Part shown: positions 21,122 through 27,100 of the stretch, piece after piece
Position numbering within the stretch: the stretch's first letter is position 1
Layout of the letters: the number at the start of each line of letters is the position of its first letter
Assembly: GCA_034780895.1 (NCBI GenBank)
Contig: JAUZTB010000107.1
Location: 22,932,357-22,989,854, forward strand
Length of the DNA: 57,498 nt
Origin: Rhynchobatus australiae
Lineage: Eukaryota
Direction of reading: 5' to 3'
Made by a program: the position numbers

Positions 21122-24100
21122 TCATGAAAATAAACAAAAATGACTGCAGATGCTGCAAATCTGAAGTGAAACCAGGAAATGCTGGGGGTTAAAAACTCAG
21201 CGGGTCGGGCAGCATCTGTGGAAGGAGACACTGTCAACGTTTCGGGTCCGGGGACCCTTCGTCGTCACAACGGTTCGTTTCAGTCGCTTCGAGACCAGGG
21301 AAGTGTCCTGACTGCTCAAACCCTGGCGCCCGTGGAGTTGCCAGTTTCCCAGCCCTCCACCCTCTTCCCCCTCCCTCAGAACTAAACCTGTTGACGTCCC
21401 CGGACCTACAGACTCGGTTCACTGATTCAGCCACTCGCCCTTCTCCCCTGCCAAACTCTGGGGACGTTTCCCAATTCTAAAGGCTAAATACTCCACCCCC
21501 ATCTCATTCAGACTCTTAATCCTGCGGGCTCAACCCACAGAGAGGAATCCATACCCACCTCGAAGCCCCACAATCACCTTTCAGCCTGTCCCCCTCCACA
21601 AGGGGAGGACTCACAATAACATCCCACGACCTGCACTCCCTCTTCTCCCCCATCCCCAGCCAGCAGTGGCTGCTAGTCCAACAGACACCGCCACTCCGCC
21701 TCCAGGCCCTTGTTTAGCGGCCCATTAAAAAATTCTAGCCACACATCCTTTCAGAACAATTCAAAATCTCTGGATGCAAAGGTGCGCACCATCATTGCGA
21801 CCAGTTTCGCAGCTGTACAAACACCTGGCTGACTTAAAGTCTGCTCAATATTTCGGGGTGGAAAGAAATACAAAATGGAAGCAAAATCAAATACAGAAAC
21901 AGCATTCAACTAGAAATGGCGAAAATAAGGCCATATTTTTACAGCCAATTAATGTTGGTCTTCCTGGCTAAGAAGGCATTTTTGCTTACCTTACCATGAC
22001 TCTCACATCCCAGTCCTACTGGTCACACGTGGGTGACATACCCAGAATCCTCAAAAAAAAAGTGCAAGTAAAACTTCAGAGTGCTGAATGCCAAAAGAGT
22101 CATATTGTCACATGTTTCATATGTGACCTACACGGGTGACTCTGTTTAAGCATTAGATAGAAGCATTAGAGAGATATTAATAGATTAACCAAATAGATGA
22201 AATCACTGGAAGATAAATTTCAATCAAGGCAAATGTGAGGTCATGAACTAAAATAAAAGAGCATTTTCTAAAAGGAATAAAATTTGAAGCAATGGATAAC
22301 CAAAAAGNNNNNNNNNNNNNNNNNNNNNNNNNNNNNNNNNNNNNNNNNNNNNNNNNNNNNNNNNNNNNNNNNNNNNNNNNNNNNNNNNNNNNNNNNNNNN
22401 NNNNNNNNNNNNNNNNNNNNNNNNNNNNNNNNNNNNNNNNNNNNNNNNNNNNNNNNNNNNNNNNNNNNNNNNNNNNNNNNNNNNNNNNNNNNNNNNNNNN
22501 NNNNNNNNNNNNNNNNNNNNNNNNNNNNNNNNNNNNNNNNNNNNNNNNNNNNNNNNNNNNNNNNNNNAGCAGAAATAACATAAGCTATTCCTTGCGTTTG
22601 AGAAGGTTAAAGGGTGATTTCATCAGAGATATTAAGGGGAACTGATAGTGTAGATAGATCAAATGATTTCTGCTGACTAGGGAGTCTAGGCCTAGGGGGC
22701 AAAATATAAAAATTAGAGCCAGGCCTTTTAAGAGTGAAATTAGGAAACACTTCTGCATGCAAAAGAGGTAGAAGTTTGGAACTCTCTTCAGCAAAGAGCA
22801 ATTGATGCTAAGTCGTTTGTCAATGGCCTGGATCTTCCTATTAAAATACAACAGTTACACATGGGGTGGATGTTTGGGGTGTTTGAGCAAAGGTGAAAGC
22901 TTAGATCATCTGGTCGACTCATCTCCGATCCCAGGCCAGGTGTTGAATTCCCACAAGTCTAGCACAGGAGCACAAGCTTCCAAATTTCTTCCAGCATTTG
23001 GACAAGGAATTTCCTTTTTCATTATTTAATTCAGTTAATTGCAATGTCTTTTTTATGCTTCTGAGTTTCTTGATGCATAAATAGTTTTATAATTTTAATT
23101 TTTAGATTATGAACAGTTGTGAATGTCAAAGCCAGTAAGCCTGAGGGCAGGGCTTAACTGGCTCTCAAAGCAATTCTGGAGGTGGAGCCTGTTATTTTTT
23201 GATCAAGAATGCCCTGCACTGCTCTGGGACTTACTAATCTGCTGGGAGACAGCTTCCAACAGAAAACTGTGCCTGATGACAGGTTAAAGCAGGTTTTGAA
23301 AATTATGAATTATCATCTCGGCAAAGTTGCAACTTGTTGGTCAGGAAAACATTCAAGCCAGCTTGTAAGTCTCTAATTTGGTAGATTGTTCTAACCAAAT
23401 ATATTAAGACATAGGGGAAAATAGTGAGTCAAAAGACTAAAGTCTAGATCATTGCTGACAAAACAAGATCATAAACCTCCTGTTCCTTTTGTCCCACGTT
23501 CCTAAATTGCAACACCAAACTCTGGTCGAATGCCTAATTTCTAATTCACACTTCATCATAAACATAAACTGATTGAAATTTAAGTGTAGAGTTGTTTAAT
23601 AAGATAATACTGATTTTGTGGTTTTATAAATATTTTGATTCATGTCATTATAAGTAATTGTGGCATGAGTCCTGCTCCTGAGGAAAGTGATTTTTTTTAC
23701 TGGATAAAATAATTTTCAAATCTAAATAAAATCTGTGAAAATTCTTGGCTTTATCAGTCTAAAGCTAGGTGATCAATGCATCTCTTTCTATATATTCAGT
23801 CCATAAAAACATAAAAAATCAATAATTTCTACACAGGAACAGTAATTTAAGTGTGAGGATTGCCTAAATCCACTACATCAACAGCAGTTTCAAGTACAGA
23901 TAGTTTGGAGTCTGGACAGAATCAAAGACGTACACTCCCAAAGGTCTTGAAACCAGTCTCAAGACTGTTCACCCATTTTGGATCAATAACAATGCAAGGT
24001 TTCCGACATGTTTGTGAAATTATGTGAAGTTGCATACCTGAACTTGTGTTTAGATGCATGGAACTAGTTCTATGTTAATCTCATGGTTAACTTTAATTAT

Positions 24101-27100
24101 TTTACTACTTTGCTGTTAAATTCACTTCCTACAGGTTATAGGAAGAACAGTGAAAAAACACAAATACATATATCAGGGAAACCAATACAGAGATGTCATT
24201 AAAGTTTCATTTTTAAAGAGCTGATTAACCAATCTGTCAGTAGCAAATTCCTAAAGGAGCTGCAATGACATTTCATCCACAGATGCACAGATTTTTAAGA
24301 TCAATAAAATACCCATTAAACGATTGTTTTTGGACAGGCAGCAGGAAAAATTATGACTGCCAGCGGATTGAATAATTAATACTGTCTGCCTCTGTGTGAA
24401 GCAGGTTTGCTCCCACTGACCCAAATGGAATTTTCTCGGTCTTTCCTTGCTAACATAAAAAGTATTTGCTATGAAAGCAATAATAGTCAAGCAGTAAATT
24501 TAAAACAATTGCATCTCCACAATTATGAATCTTTATTATAAATACTTTGCAATGTAAATAAGATGTCATTGAGGAACAATCTGCATAACAAAGTTTTCTG
24601 GTACTATTTGCTGAGAAGAGTACTCTAATGTTGTTCTGGACAACATACTTCCCATTGGAGACACAGTCAAAAGGCAAACATTTCCTGATTATAGAACCTA
24701 GATAAGCACAAACTGGTTGTCATGTTTAGCATGTCTACATTTCTTTCAAGGGTAATTTAGGTGAGGGAAATGGTACAGTGCTGTANNNNNNNNNNNNNNN
24801 NNNNNNNNNNNNNNNNNNNNNNNNNNNNNNNNNNNNNNNNNNNNNNNNNNNNNNNNNNNNNNNNNNNNNNNNNNNNNNNNNNNNNAGGTGAGGGAAATGG
24901 TACAGTGCTGTATAAATAAAACTCCTTTCAAAAGTGAAAAGAAATACGAGTTAACACTTCAACAAACAACTCTCTATTAGGAATTAGGGCCAAAAATGTT
25001 TTAAATTAATTAAATTGAATCATTTCATGGCAACAAAATTAGTATTAGTCACCAGTTACTTTGGTTTGGGAGGTACTATAAACTATAATTCTTTTGGATG
25101 GATCATATAACAAAGATATACAATAGAGTATTAGAAGTGTCACTTGAGCTGCATTACATCAATAGAAGCAGTTCAATATAACATTAGAACCAAAGTTACA
25201 CAAATTAAGAAAATAGTTAATCTCCATTCTCAGTCTTGTGTACTTCTAGATAAGTTCTGTGTATGTACCAATATATCCGATATCCGCAATGAAGGAATTC
25301 ACTGGTATGCCCAGCAGCCAAATGTGTACATTTCACTCAAAATTTTGTCTACATTATGTGAATATGGTTTAAGGTATCATCCATTAGGAAATGGAAAATA
25401 ATTAACAATTAAATAGATTTATTTTATCCAGTATTTCCTTTGAAAAAGACAATATGCCAGAAAATAGCAAGAAATTCAATTAATGGGGGAGTGAAATTAA
25501 ACAGGAATTATCTTGCTTCACCATAACACTGGATGATGATCCATGAAAACATTAGAATAATATGGTTTTCCTCATGTTGCTGCAGTTCTTTGTCCAATTT
25601 ATTCATTACTTGTATGAACCAAAATATTTCTTCCATAGACTGACCAGGCTAAGTGTCAACTGTTCCAAATTACAAAGGAAAGAACAACAGGCAACTTAAT
25701 TCTTCATTCAGTATAGAAACGATAACCAGTGATCATGGCAAGCAACACTCCAGATTCAATGCTTATGTCACAGGGTTTGATAAGACAAGATTTTATCTCT
25801 GTTGGTATCAGTTTGATTGGCATTTGAAAAATCTGTGGGGTTACAGCTTCTGAGACTGTAAGAAATCACTTAAACCCAAACTGAGAAGTCTGACCAACCT
25901 CCTCCCTTCATCAATTCCTAAAAAAAAACTATACTTTAATATCCTCTTATTATCAATGTTTTAGAGTATAAATAAATTCAACACATAAAATTGGCAGTTC
26001 TATTTTATGTTTAAATTATATTCAACTCTTGCACCAGATGATTTAGCTAAAAGCAGAAGTGACCCCAGTAGTATAGCTTTNNNNNNNNNNNNNNNNNNNN
26101 NNNNNNNNNNNNNNNNNNNNNNNNNNNNNNNNNNNNNNNNNNNNNNNNNNNNNNNNNNNNNNNNNNNNNNNNNNNNNNNNGTAGTATAGCTTTGCAAATC
26201 ATTGGTTATGTCTGTAATTCTTCCCCTTACCTAATGCTTAAACGTGGTTCATTTCAAAATGATATATCATTCTCAAAATGGAAAGAGAAAATTACAGCAA
26301 AAATCAAACTTAGTGAGTGGTCCAACTGCAGAAGATGAACTGCAAGTATAGGGTTGCCCAACAGGTCCAAAGAAGACAAAGGGGTGCATTTTTAAGGAAA
26401 TATATTCTGTGGAGGAGTAAATGGCGTTTGGTCTGCTTATTACATTAAACAGTGGGAGTGGGATGTTACTGTGAGTCCTCCCCTTGTGGAGAGGGACAGG
26501 CTGGAAGGTGATTGTGGGCTTCTAGTTGGGTATGGGTTCTTCTCTGTGGGTTGAGCCCATAGAATTAAGAGTCTGAATGAGATGGGGGTGGAGTATTTAG
26601 CCTTTAGAATTGGGAAACGTCCCCAGAATTTGGGTGGGGAGAAGGGCAAGCAGTTGAATCAGTGAACCGAGTCTGTAGGTCCGGGGACGTCAACAGGTTC
26701 AGTTCGGAGGGCAGGGGGAAGAGGGTGGAGGGCTGGGAAACTGGCAACTCCACGGGCGCCAGGGTTTGAGCAGTCCGGGCACTTCCCTGGTCTCGAAGCG
26801 ACTGAAACGAACCGTTGTGACAAAGGGTCCCTGGACCCGAAACATTGACAGTATCTCCTTCCATGCATGCAGGGATAAAAATGCTAATGAAACTTTGTCC
26901 TCGATCTCTAGAATGCTGGAATACTGAAACAAGGAAATTATGCTCTAACTATCAGATGCTTTCATGAGCACTGATTTTAGTTTTATCCCCTGAGCCTCAT
27001 GGTACATTATGTCATATTTTGCAAGAGTGGGCAACTTGTCCATGCAACATTAATTGCAAGGGTTTGAGCACATTTAGACTTTTAAATCATTTGCCTGCAA

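What the first reader, a model, noticed from the sequence alone, without database searches (positions are those of the whole stretch)
21219..26863. ~405-bp inverted duplication in wnt5a intron 4, 160 nt from the last splice acceptor
Seen: 21219-21627 and 26458-26863 are reverse complements at roughly 92-93% identity (manual count), about 4.8 kb apart in one intron. Arm B starts in the middle of the short repeat at 21130-21263 and continues into its flank, so it looks like a local inverted copy rather than two independent insertions. Arm B also keeps most CpGs although its surroundings are CpG-poor. Inference: the pre-mRNA could fold into a ~400-bp duplex just upstream of the final 3' splice site. 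Long intronic duplexes are established ADAR substrates and splicing modulators, and the arms could also mediate inversion of the intervening segment.
[Added by the scan's program, not by the reader: the finding's places include an assembly gap (unread letters, written N; its length is only estimated) at 22308 to 22567, 24786 to 24885, 26081 to 26180. Whether the letters on both sides are continuous or in frame is not known: test that first.]
Basis: partly seen in the sequence, partly recalled or inferred. Interest (0 to 1): 0.65.

Follow-up and report, generated by a model that had tools for sequence, protein, structure and literature searches.

The report
Local inverted duplication in wnt5a intron
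A stretch of about 415 bases next to the last exon of a wnt5a gene was copied, in reverse orientation, about 4.6 kb further into the same intron; this is an ordinary kind of genomic scar that could form a long RNA duplex, but nothing shows that it does anything.

Summary
21219-21627 and 26458-26863 are reverse complements: 381 of 410 aligned columns match (92.9%, E 1e-170). This is by far the strongest self-match in the window.

- **Location:** both arms lie in the last intron (21059-36753, minus strand) of a Wnt-5a-type gene. The near arm ends 160 nt from the final acceptor.
- **Direction of copying:** the arm at 21.2 kb is the parent. It is continuous with a dispersed short repeat and with its C-rich flank. 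The arm at 26.5 kb is a GC-rich island with sharp edges, no target-site duplication and no tail.
- **Most likely origin:** a DNA-level templated inverted duplication, not two transposon insertions. Genome-wide copy number could not be checked.
- **CpG retention:** arm B keeps 11 of 18 CpGs, which fits a young copy (K2P 0.062) and needs no protection.
- **RNA duplex:** about 400 bp is thermodynamically certain on paper (-820 kcal/mol). Editing, splicing effects and inversion are untested.
- **Assembly caveat:** two of the three gaps between the arms are overlapping contig ends. The 260-N gap is unbridged, so "inverted" rests on scaffolding.

Ordinary; low interest.

The parts
21212..21627 (+). 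Arm A, the parent copy. It is the proximal arm in the pre-mRNA and ends 153-160 nt upstream of the last acceptor. 56.5% GC, C-rich on the + strand, 18 CpG (o/e 0.60).
   Evidence: alignment; CpG; the GC skew of -0.28 to -0.46 continues into 21628-21760.
26458..26870 (-). Arm B, the daughter copy and reverse complement of arm A. It is a 54.7% GC island in 32-42% GC surroundings, with 13 CpG (o/e 0.46).
   Evidence: composition step at both edges; no direct repeat of 6 nt or more in the 45-nt flanks; no residual homology beyond the edges.
21136..21237 (+). Dispersed short repeat. Arm A begins inside it.
   Evidence: partial copies at 39365-39440(-), 18478-18528(+) and 55378-55415(-). Sequences read.
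20600..21058 (-). Last coding exon of the Wnt-5a-type gene (CDS 20603-21058 plus the stop codon 20600-20602). The acceptor AG is at 21060-21059.
   Evidence: ORF; Pfam wnt PF00110, 7.8e-64, profile 151-305 of 305; best named hits are Wnt-5a at 90-95% identity; the first Wnt-5b row is at 86%.
36754..37046 (-). Penultimate coding exon (293 nt). The GT donor is at 36753-36752.
   Evidence: sequence; Pfam wnt, 8.4e-32, profile 61-152 of 305, which abuts the last exon on the profile.
21059..36753 (-). Last intron, 15,695 nt as assembled including N. It contains both arms.
22308..22567 (.). Assembly gap of 260 N with no end overlap. It is the only unbridged join between the arms, so the arms' relative orientation depends on it.
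24786..24885 (.). 100-N gap flanked by an exact 27-nt end overlap. The contigs abut, so the gap is probably spurious.
26081..26180 (.). 100-N gap flanked by an exact 13-nt end overlap. The contigs abut, so the gap is probably spurious.

Best explanation
**Shown.** This is a real, local, DNA-level inverted segmental duplication. A segment of about 415 bp lies just upstream of the last exon of a Wnt-5a-type gene. It consists of the last 26-50 nt of a dispersed short repeat plus about 365 nt of its unique C-rich flank. That segment was copied in reverse orientation into AT-rich DNA of the same intron, about 4.6-4.8 kb away. The two copies have since diverged by about 6% (K2P 0.062). The daughter lost CpGs faster (7 of 18) than the parent (at most 2 of 13).

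**Inferred, origin.** The copy arose by a repair or replication error that used nearby sequence as template: a templated insertion at a break, or a template switch of the MMBIR/FoSTeS kind. It did not arise by transposition. This is inferred from the sharp edges, the lack of a target-site duplication, the lack of a tail and the closeness in cis. It happened tens of millions of years ago (a rough figure that depends on an assumed rate).

**Inferred, consequence.** Both arms are in one intron and are transcribed together. The pre-mRNA can therefore pair them into an imperfect duplex of about 400 bp that loops out about 4.6 kb. The duplex would end about 155 nt before the 3' splice site, so the polypyrimidine tract and probable branch site would stay free. 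Such a duplex would be an ADAR substrate.

**My reading.** It is most likely selectively neutral.
For: **The repeat and its uniqueness.**
- 381 of 410 columns are identical, E 1e-170. It is the top of 7 self-HSPs.
- The window holds no third copy of 21264-21627. Apart from self and arm B, only chance-level hits appear (E 0.071 and 0.87).

**Polarity (arm A is the parent).**
- In arm A the short repeat runs uninterrupted across the arm's outer edge. Copies at 18478-18528 and 55378-55415 align to 21173-21228 and 21197-21237.
- Arm B starts mid-repeat and is followed by unrelated AT-rich DNA.
- Arm A's GC content and C-skew continue at least 130 nt beyond its inner edge (21628-21700: GC 0.66, skew -0.50). 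Arm B has lower-GC DNA on both sides (0.39 and 0.35).

**Not a transposition.**
- No shared word of 6 nt or more in the 45-nt flanks of arm B, and no A-run or microsatellite at either end.
- 0 tRNA genes.
- No Rfam match at E<=1 except one noise hit (20.8 bits against a gathering score of 50).
- 80 of 83 intron ORFs of 55 aa or more have no Pfam family, and none has a transposase or reverse transcriptase.

**Not a haplotig artefact.**
- Divergence is 7%.
- Both arms lie inside contigs with unique flanks, 680 nt and 277 nt from the contig ends.

**Same intron.** The two flanking exons abut on the Pfam wnt profile (61-152 and 151-305).

**Duplex.**
- Cofold gives -820.5 kcal/mol with 396 intermolecular pairs.
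- The gain over self-folds is -557 kcal/mol, against -15 to -49 for 10 shuffles.

**Literature.**
- Metazoan A-to-I editing mainly targets dsRNA formed by young repeats, and the paper calls pairing of nearby inverted repeats the conventional source (PMC9989829, summary and passages read).
- Templated insertions by MMBIR or at breaks are documented (PMC8421209 and PMC11724301; only the listing and the start of each abstract seen).
Against: - Copy number of the 415-bp unit in the whole genome is unknown. No eukaryotic genome collection was available, so a composite dispersed repeat is not excluded.
- The phmmer search with a 95-aa reading of arm A found only 4 weak hits (best E 6.1e-5). It is uninformative, because the part of the query that lies in the known dispersed repeat found nothing either.
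- The junctions are fuzzy by about 7 nt (21212 against 21219), so microhomology cannot be scored.
- Templated insertions described at breaks are mostly much shorter: about 5-34 bp in the yeast study, from the start of its abstract.
- The inverted orientation and the distance depend on the unbridged 260-N gap.
- There are no RNA data, so pairing in vivo, editing and any splicing effect are inference only.
- The transitions show no pairing-preserving bias (11 G.U against 7 A.C, p 0.48).
Confidence: 0.6

Rival explanations
1. The arms are two copies of one dispersed repeat family: a composite element made of the short repeat plus about 365 bp. They inserted independently in opposite orientations, and arm B is a 5'-truncated copy, as is usual for LINE-dependent retroposons.
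For: - Both arms stop at exactly the same inner position (21627 and 26458), as copies of a retroposon sharing a 3' end would.
- Arm B begins inside the short repeat, as a 5' truncation would.
- The short repeat is certainly dispersed, with 3 further partial copies in the window.
- The genome-wide count could not be made.
Against: - 0 of the 3 other short-repeat copies in the window continue into the 365-bp part, and the window holds no third copy of that part.
- There is no A-rich or microsatellite tail at the shared end and no TSD around arm B.
- There is no tRNA-like head or Rfam match.
- Arm A's composition continues unchanged beyond the supposed element end.
- Two independent insertions of an otherwise unseen family within 5 kb would be a coincidence.
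Confidence: 0.2
2. The sequence of both arms is real, but the arrangement is a scaffolding artefact. Block 22568-28477 is flipped or misplaced, so the pair is in truth a direct repeat or lies further apart, and no intramolecular hairpin exists.
For: - The 260-N gap at 22308-22567 has no end overlap, and the block carries no exon that would fix its orientation.
- The window has 22 gaps in 57.5 kb, so this is a fragmented short-read-type assembly.
Against: - Inside the block the contigs are tied in the given order and orientation by exact 27-nt and 13-nt end overlaps.
- The scaffolder gave the 260-N gap a specific size estimate rather than the 100-N placeholder, which suggests spanning read pairs (my inference).
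- The + strand A-over-T excess in the block (+0.043 and +0.094) has the same sign as in 21761-22307 (+0.205). The rest of the intron shows almost none (+0.014), so this is weak.
Confidence: 0.1
3. The pair is a selected regulatory element: an intronic dsRNA that tunes removal of the last wnt5a intron, recruits ADAR, or yields small RNAs.
For: - The position is striking, with the proximal arm 160 nt from the last acceptor.
- The predicted duplex is very stable, with perfect runs of 64, 63, 45 and 42 bp.
- Editing of dsRNA from nearby inverted repeats is general in metazoans (PMC9989829, summary and passages).
Against: - The position near the exon belongs to the parent sequence, which was there before the copy existed (polarity).
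- Divergence between the arms looks neutral: ts:tv is 18:6, CpG decay is on the methylated-looking side, and there is no excess of pairing-preserving changes (p 0.48).
- The branch site and pyrimidine tract lie outside the duplex (read by eye).
- There are no comparative or RNA data.
Confidence: 0.06

Closest known systems
Intronic inverted-repeat dsRNA such as inverted Alu pairs in primate introns and 3' UTRs (ADAR hyper-editing substrates)
   Same: Two reverse-complementary copies of a few hundred nt lie a few kb apart within one transcript and are predicted to form a long imperfect duplex. The general rule that editing targets dsRNA from young repeats comes from PMC9989829.
   Different: The arms are not shown to belong to a transposon family; most of each arm looks like unique intron sequence copied locally. 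No editing data exist here. The arms are 4.6-4.8 kb apart, wider than the +/-2 kb search span that paper used for intramolecular partners (its methods passage).
Templated insertions and template-switch duplications (MMBIR/FoSTeS; inverted templated insertions at double-strand breaks)
   Same: The copy comes from a nearby template in cis, is inverted, and has sharp edges, no target-site duplication and no tail.
   Different: At about 415 bp it is much longer than the mostly 5-34 bp events of the yeast study (PMC11724301, start of abstract only). Junction microhomology cannot be scored after 6% divergence. The mechanism is inferred, not observed.
LINE/SINE 3' transduction with 5' truncation
   Same: The copy begins inside a repeat and runs on into that repeat's flank.
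   Different: There is no tail at the far end, no TSD and no recognisable pol III head. The family and orientation of the short repeat could not be named: PMC5499810, read as abstract and passages, gives no sequence.
Foldback or long-TIR DNA transposons
   Same: Formally there are two inverted arms of about 415 bp around an interior of about 4.6 kb.
   Different: The outer edge of arm A is not an element end, because the short repeat runs through it. There is no TSD. No interior ORF of 55 aa or more between 21628 and 26457 has a Pfam family, although 460 N of the interior are unread.

Membership tests
Intronic inverted-repeat dsRNA / ADAR substrate | Two reverse-complementary segments, each well over 30 bp, inside one transcription unit | tested here: met
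   410 columns at 92.9%. Both arms lie in intron 21059-36753. This holds as scaffolded, and the orientation depends on the 260-N gap.
Intronic inverted-repeat dsRNA / ADAR substrate | Clusters of A-to-G mismatches in RNA against the genome in both arms | not testable with these tools
   No RNA data were available.
Intronic inverted-repeat dsRNA / ADAR substrate | Arms are copies of a dispersed repeat family (the usual case) | tested here: inconclusive
   The 57.5-kb window holds no third copy of the 365-bp part. The whole genome could not be searched.
SINE/LINE retroposon copy (including 3' transduction) | Target-site duplication flanking the insert | tested here: not met
   The 45-nt flanks of arm B share no word of 6 nt or more.
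SINE/LINE retroposon copy (including 3' transduction) | A-rich or microsatellite 3' tail | tested here: not met
   None is present at 26458 or 26870, nor at 21627 (read directly).
SINE/LINE retroposon copy (including 3' transduction) | Small-RNA-derived head (tRNA, 5S or 7SL) | tested here: not met
   ARAGORN found 0 genes in the window. Rfam at E<=1 gave only one noise hit in 20000-28477.
Long-TIR or foldback DNA transposon | Outer ends of the arms are the ends of the element, flanked by a TSD | tested here: not met
   The short repeat continues across arm A's outer edge, and there is no TSD.
Long-TIR or foldback DNA transposon | Transposase coding capacity between the arms (autonomous copies) | tested here: not met
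   Every ORF of 55 aa or more scanned between 21628 and 26457 came back with 0 Pfam families. 460 N of the interior are unread.
Templated inverted duplication (repair or replication error) | Donor and copy lie close together in cis; the copy is bounded sharply and lacks transposition hallmarks | tested here: met
   For the inner flanks, 83 of 200 shuffles reach the observed score. For the outer flanks, 5 of 200 do, and that alignment is not collinear.
Templated inverted duplication (repair or replication error) | Microhomology at the junctions | tested here: inconclusive
   The outer junction is ambiguous between 21212 and 21219. The pre-insertion site is unknown.
Assembly artefact (collapsed or duplicated haplotype contig) | Near-identical copies lying at contig ends with no unique flanks | tested here: not met
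   Identity is 92.9%. The arms lie 680 nt and 277 nt inside their contigs, with unrelated flanks.
Wnt-5a gene (context) | Wnt domain, with closest named relatives Wnt-5a rather than Wnt-5b | tested here: met
   Pfam wnt on both exons. In the exon-5 peptide search, 10 of the top 20 rows are named Wnt-5a and none Wnt-5b; the first Wnt-5b row has 86% identity against 90-95%.

The most novel reading that the evidence does not exclude
The daughter arm was kept because pairing with the sequence next to the last acceptor makes a long intronic hairpin. That hairpin would set the timing of removal of the 15.7-kb last intron of wnt5a, or feed ADAR or small-RNA pathways. It would be a non-transposon, locally made dsRNA switch in a key developmental gene of a cartilaginous fish.
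Probability: 0.05. Interest if true: 0.55.

Novelty: new member of a known kind. Interest (0 to 1): 0.2.

Why it matters
As it stands it matters little. Inverted repeats in long introns are common, and this one looks like a neutral scar of a repair or replication error.

It has some value as a clean example. A pair of arms that are mostly not transposon sequence, with a readable parent and daughter, shows that local templated duplication can create long dsRNA-forming introns without mobile elements.

It is also a practical warning for anyone annotating or designing assays on this wnt5a locus. Two of the 100-N gaps are overlapping contig ends, and the arm orientation is unverified.

If RNA data showed heavy editing or an effect on the last splice, it would become a tractable model of intronic dsRNA in a developmental gene.

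Tried and rejected
- **Rfam, E<=1, 20000-28477:** only sn2903 at 20.8 bits against a gathering score of 50, which is noise.
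- **ARAGORN on the whole window:** 0 genes.
- **Pfam on 83 stop-to-stop ORFs of 55 aa or more overlapping 21100-36750:** the two wnt exons are the only matches above the cut-off. Below it are PRIMA1 (22 bits against 38.6, at 27264-27521) and DUF6973 (17.1 against 27, on the exon-4 ORF). 80 of 83 ORFs had no family.
- **phmmer of the 95-aa reading of 21193-21477 against 1.84 billion representatives:** 4 hits at E<=1e-3, best 6.1e-5. They have 31-44% identity and match long proteins in several stretches. I read them as composition-driven. The search says nothing about copy number, because the part of the query from the known dispersed repeat found nothing either. Only one frame of one arm was tried.
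- **TSD search around arm B:** nothing of 6 nt or more.
- **Residual homology beyond the arms:** none. For the inner flanks, 83 of 200 shuffles reach the score. For the outer flanks, 5 of 200 do, and the alignment is A-rich and not collinear.
- **A weak inverted 37-nt match, 22144-22176 against 26243-26207** (78%, E 0.013-0.032): not collinear with the arms, so dismissed.
- **Strand asymmetry as a check of block orientation:** too weak to decide.
- **Pairing-preserving bias among transitions:** none (p 0.48).
- **Naming the short repeat from the literature:** My impression that this motif is abundant in cartilaginous-fish genomes is recalled, not tested.
- **Literature search for wnt5a + inverted repeat + intron + shark:** 214 papers hold at least 3 of the 4 terms. 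None of the 10 listed deals with this.
- **Not possible here:** a search of any shark, ray or other eukaryotic genome for further copies.

Full report
**Observation**

- The repeat finder gives four collinear inverted pieces that together cover 21212-21627 and 26458-26870.
- A self-BLASTN of the window gives a single HSP, 26458-26863 against 21627-21219. It has 92.68% identity over 410 columns, E 9.7e-171 and 596 bits. It is the best of only 7 non-self HSPs at E<=1e-5, and the runner-up has 147 bits.
- A gapped alignment gives 381 matches in 410 columns (92.9%), 24 substitutions (18 transitions, 6 transversions), 5 gap columns and K2P 0.062.
- Chance is excluded.

**Gene context**

The gene is on the minus strand. 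The exons were searched one at a time, and the joined, spliced model was deliberately not built or searched.
- The ORF 20603-21121(-) matches Pfam wnt (PF00110) at 7.8e-64 over profile positions 151-305 of 305.
- The ORF 36712-37068(-) matches the same profile at 8.4e-32 over positions 61-152. The two exons are therefore neighbours with nothing missing between them.
- Read from the sequence, the last exon starts at 21058 behind an AG at 21060-21059.
- The previous exon is 37046-36754, followed by GT. An exon with the RWNC motif lies near 40540.
- The last intron is thus 21059-36753, 15,695 nt as assembled, and holds both arms.
- The exon-5 peptide finds 2199 proteins at E<=0.001 among 2281 candidates. 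Of the top 20 rows, 10 are named Wnt-5a and none Wnt-5b, with identities of 90-95%. The first Wnt-5b row has 86%.
- No listed species reaches more than 95%, so the source species is not among them.
I do not take the window for human.

**Assembly gaps (tested first, as asked)**

The window has 22 gaps. Three lie between the arms.
- The 100-N gaps at 24786-24885 and 26081-26180 are flanked by exact end overlaps of 27 and 13 nt.
- Those contigs therefore abut in the order and orientation given, and the gaps are placeholders. Collapsing them shortens the spacing by 240 nt, from 4830 to about 4590 nt.
- Four of the six 100-N gaps in the window behave this way (overlaps of 27, 13, 9 and 18 nt).
- The 260-N gap at 22308-22567 has no overlap.
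- Arm A and exon 5 sit in contig 15438-22307. Arm B sits in the tied block 22568-28477, which has no exon.
- That the pair is inverted rather than direct, and about 4.6 kb apart, therefore rests on the scaffolder's read pairs. I could not find a usable internal check (strand asymmetry is too weak).
- Reading frame is not an issue, since everything concerned is intronic.

**What the arms are made of**
- The first 26-50 nt of arm A belong to a dispersed short repeat.
- Partial copies of that repeat lie at 39365-39440(-), 18478-18528(+) and 55378-55415(-), with E 2.3e-9, 2.8e-8 and 0.026. Together they support the repeat over 21136-21237 (read).
- The other 365 nt or so (21264-21627) have no further copy in the window; the remaining hits have E 0.071 and 0.87.
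- They match no Rfam family and no tRNA.
- They carry no ORF with a Pfam family.
- One 95-aa reading found nothing convincing among 1.84 billion protein representatives (4 hits, best E 6.1e-5). That last search cannot speak to copy number.

**Parent and daughter**

Two of the in-window copies of the short repeat align across arm A's outer edge (to 21173-21228 and 21197-21237). In arm A the repeat is therefore whole and the arm simply starts inside it. Arm B carries only the part of the repeat from that point on, followed by unrelated DNA. Arm B therefore cannot be the source of arm A.

Composition agrees.
- Arm A's GC content and strong C-skew run on for at least 130 nt past its inner edge (21628-21700: GC 0.66, skew -0.50).
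- Arm B is a 49-63% GC island between 39% and 35% GC flanks.
- Arm B has no direct repeat of 6 nt or more in its 45-nt flanks and no A-run or microsatellite at either end.
- Homology stops sharply on both sides. For the inner flanks 83 of 200 shuffles reach the observed score. For the outer flanks 5 of 200 do, and that alignment is not collinear.
- None of the 3 other short-repeat copies continues into the 365-bp part.

Together this favours a DNA-level copy of local sequence over two insertions of a mobile element. The rival, a composite dispersed element with arm B as a 5'-truncated copy, stays open until the full genome is searched. I put it at about 0.2.

**Mechanism of origin (inferred)**

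The copy is inverted, tail-less, TSD-less and only a few kb from its template. The known processes that produce this are templated insertion during break repair and template switching during replication (MMBIR/FoSTeS). I saw only the listing and the starts of the abstracts of PMC8421209 and PMC11724301. The latter describes mostly 5-34 bp events, so about 415 bp is at the long end. Junction microhomology cannot be scored, because the outer junction is ambiguous over 7 nt and the empty site is unknown.

**CpG**
- Arm A has 18 CpG (o/e 0.60) and arm B has 13 (0.46). 11 are shared, 7 are present only in A and 2 only in B.
- The surroundings of arm B are at 0.16 and 0.26. Arm A sits in a CpG-richer 3' end of the gene, with exon 5 at 0.82 and 15438-20599 at 0.66.
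- Four of the seven A-only sites are TG or CA in B, the signature of methyl-CpG decay.
- Survival of 11 of 18 in B is about what a copy of this age in methylated DNA would show, if CpG transitions run roughly ten times faster than other changes (textbook figure, not measured here).
- B keeps most CpGs because it is young, not because it is protected.
- At assumed neutral rates of 0.5-2e-9 per site per year, K2P 0.062 corresponds to roughly 15-60 million years. This is only an order of magnitude.

**Consequences (inferred)**
- In the sense pre-mRNA the two arms cofold at -820.5 kcal/mol with 396 intermolecular pairs. The gain over the separate folds is -557 kcal/mol, against -15 to -49 for 10 shuffled partners.
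- The longest perfect runs are 64, 63, 45 and 42 bp.
- This only restates the complementarity; it does not show pairing in vivo.
- The duplex would loop out about 4.6 kb of the intron and end about 155 nt before the acceptor. The pyrimidine tract and the likely branch site, within about 40 nt of the AG, stay outside it (read by eye).
- Editing of such a duplex by ADAR is expected from general knowledge. PMC9989829 (summary and passages read) reports that metazoan A-to-I editing mainly targets dsRNA from young repeats and calls pairing of nearby inverted repeats the conventional source.
- Nothing points to selection. Transitions between the arms give 11 G.U against 7 A.C oppositions in the sense RNA (two-sided p 0.48).
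- The closeness to the exon is a property of the parent sequence, which predates the copy.
- Inversion of the interior by recombination between the arms is possible in principle. With identical runs of at most 64 nt it should now be inefficient (threshold recalled, not tested).

**Comparison and verdict**

The pair works like the intronic inverted repeats that make up most ADAR substrates. It differs in that its arms are mostly not transposon sequence, as far as the window can show. It is not a SINE/LINE copy (tail, TSD and head all tested and not met). It is not a long-TIR transposon (outer ends, TSD and transposase not met). It is not a haplotig artefact (7% divergence, arms internal to contigs).

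I found nothing in print on this locus: the search found 214 papers with at least 3 of the 4 terms, and none of the 10 listed is relevant.

It is a new example of a known kind, most likely neutral. Its structural inference is supported with the copy-number and scaffolding caveats. Its functional inferences remain untested.

**Left unchecked**
- RNA editing, and long-read support for the arrangement.
- The supplements of PMC5499810 and PMC9989829, which are closed. They might name the short repeat or list edited loci.

Noticed in passing
window 24759-24912, 26068-26193, 43551-43650, 52919-53018: Four of the six 100-N gaps in the window are flanked by exact end overlaps (27, 13, 9 and 18 nt). 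These gaps look like placeholders between contigs that really overlap, so distances across them are overstated by 100 nt plus the overlap.
   Followed up: yes
window 39313-39409: A copy of the dispersed short repeat is arranged as a foldback: it is a self-inverted match at 71% over 98 columns, with a 3-N gap (39343-39345) at the centre of symmetry. The palindrome may be what broke the assembly there.
   Followed up: partly
window 27203-27541: A GC-richer patch (about 48% GC) 400 nt beyond arm B. It has a 112-aa open frame on the + strand and a sub-threshold Pfam PRIMA1 match in a neighbouring frame (22 bits against a cut-off of 38.6). It is probably proline-run composition, though it could be a conserved non-coding element.
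   Followed up: no
window 15438-21760: The 3' end of the gene and the DNA downstream of it have a high CpG o/e: 0.66 over 15438-20599 and 0.82 in exon 5, against 0.16-0.26 in the intron. This looks like a hypomethylated domain and explains why arm A kept its CpGs.
   Followed up: partly
window 30225-30510 and 10050-10330; 40216-40290 and 38862-38936; 32030-32076 and 30325-30371: Other dispersed direct repeats in the window (71%, 83% and 91% identity). The first pair links the last intron with DNA downstream of the gene. Their families were not identified.
   Followed up: no
window 21212-21627 and 26458-26870: Both arms are depleted in GpC as well as CpG (GpC o/e 0.50 and 0.57, against 1.05-1.35 around them). 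This is a compositional oddity of the copied segment that I cannot explain.
   Followed up: no
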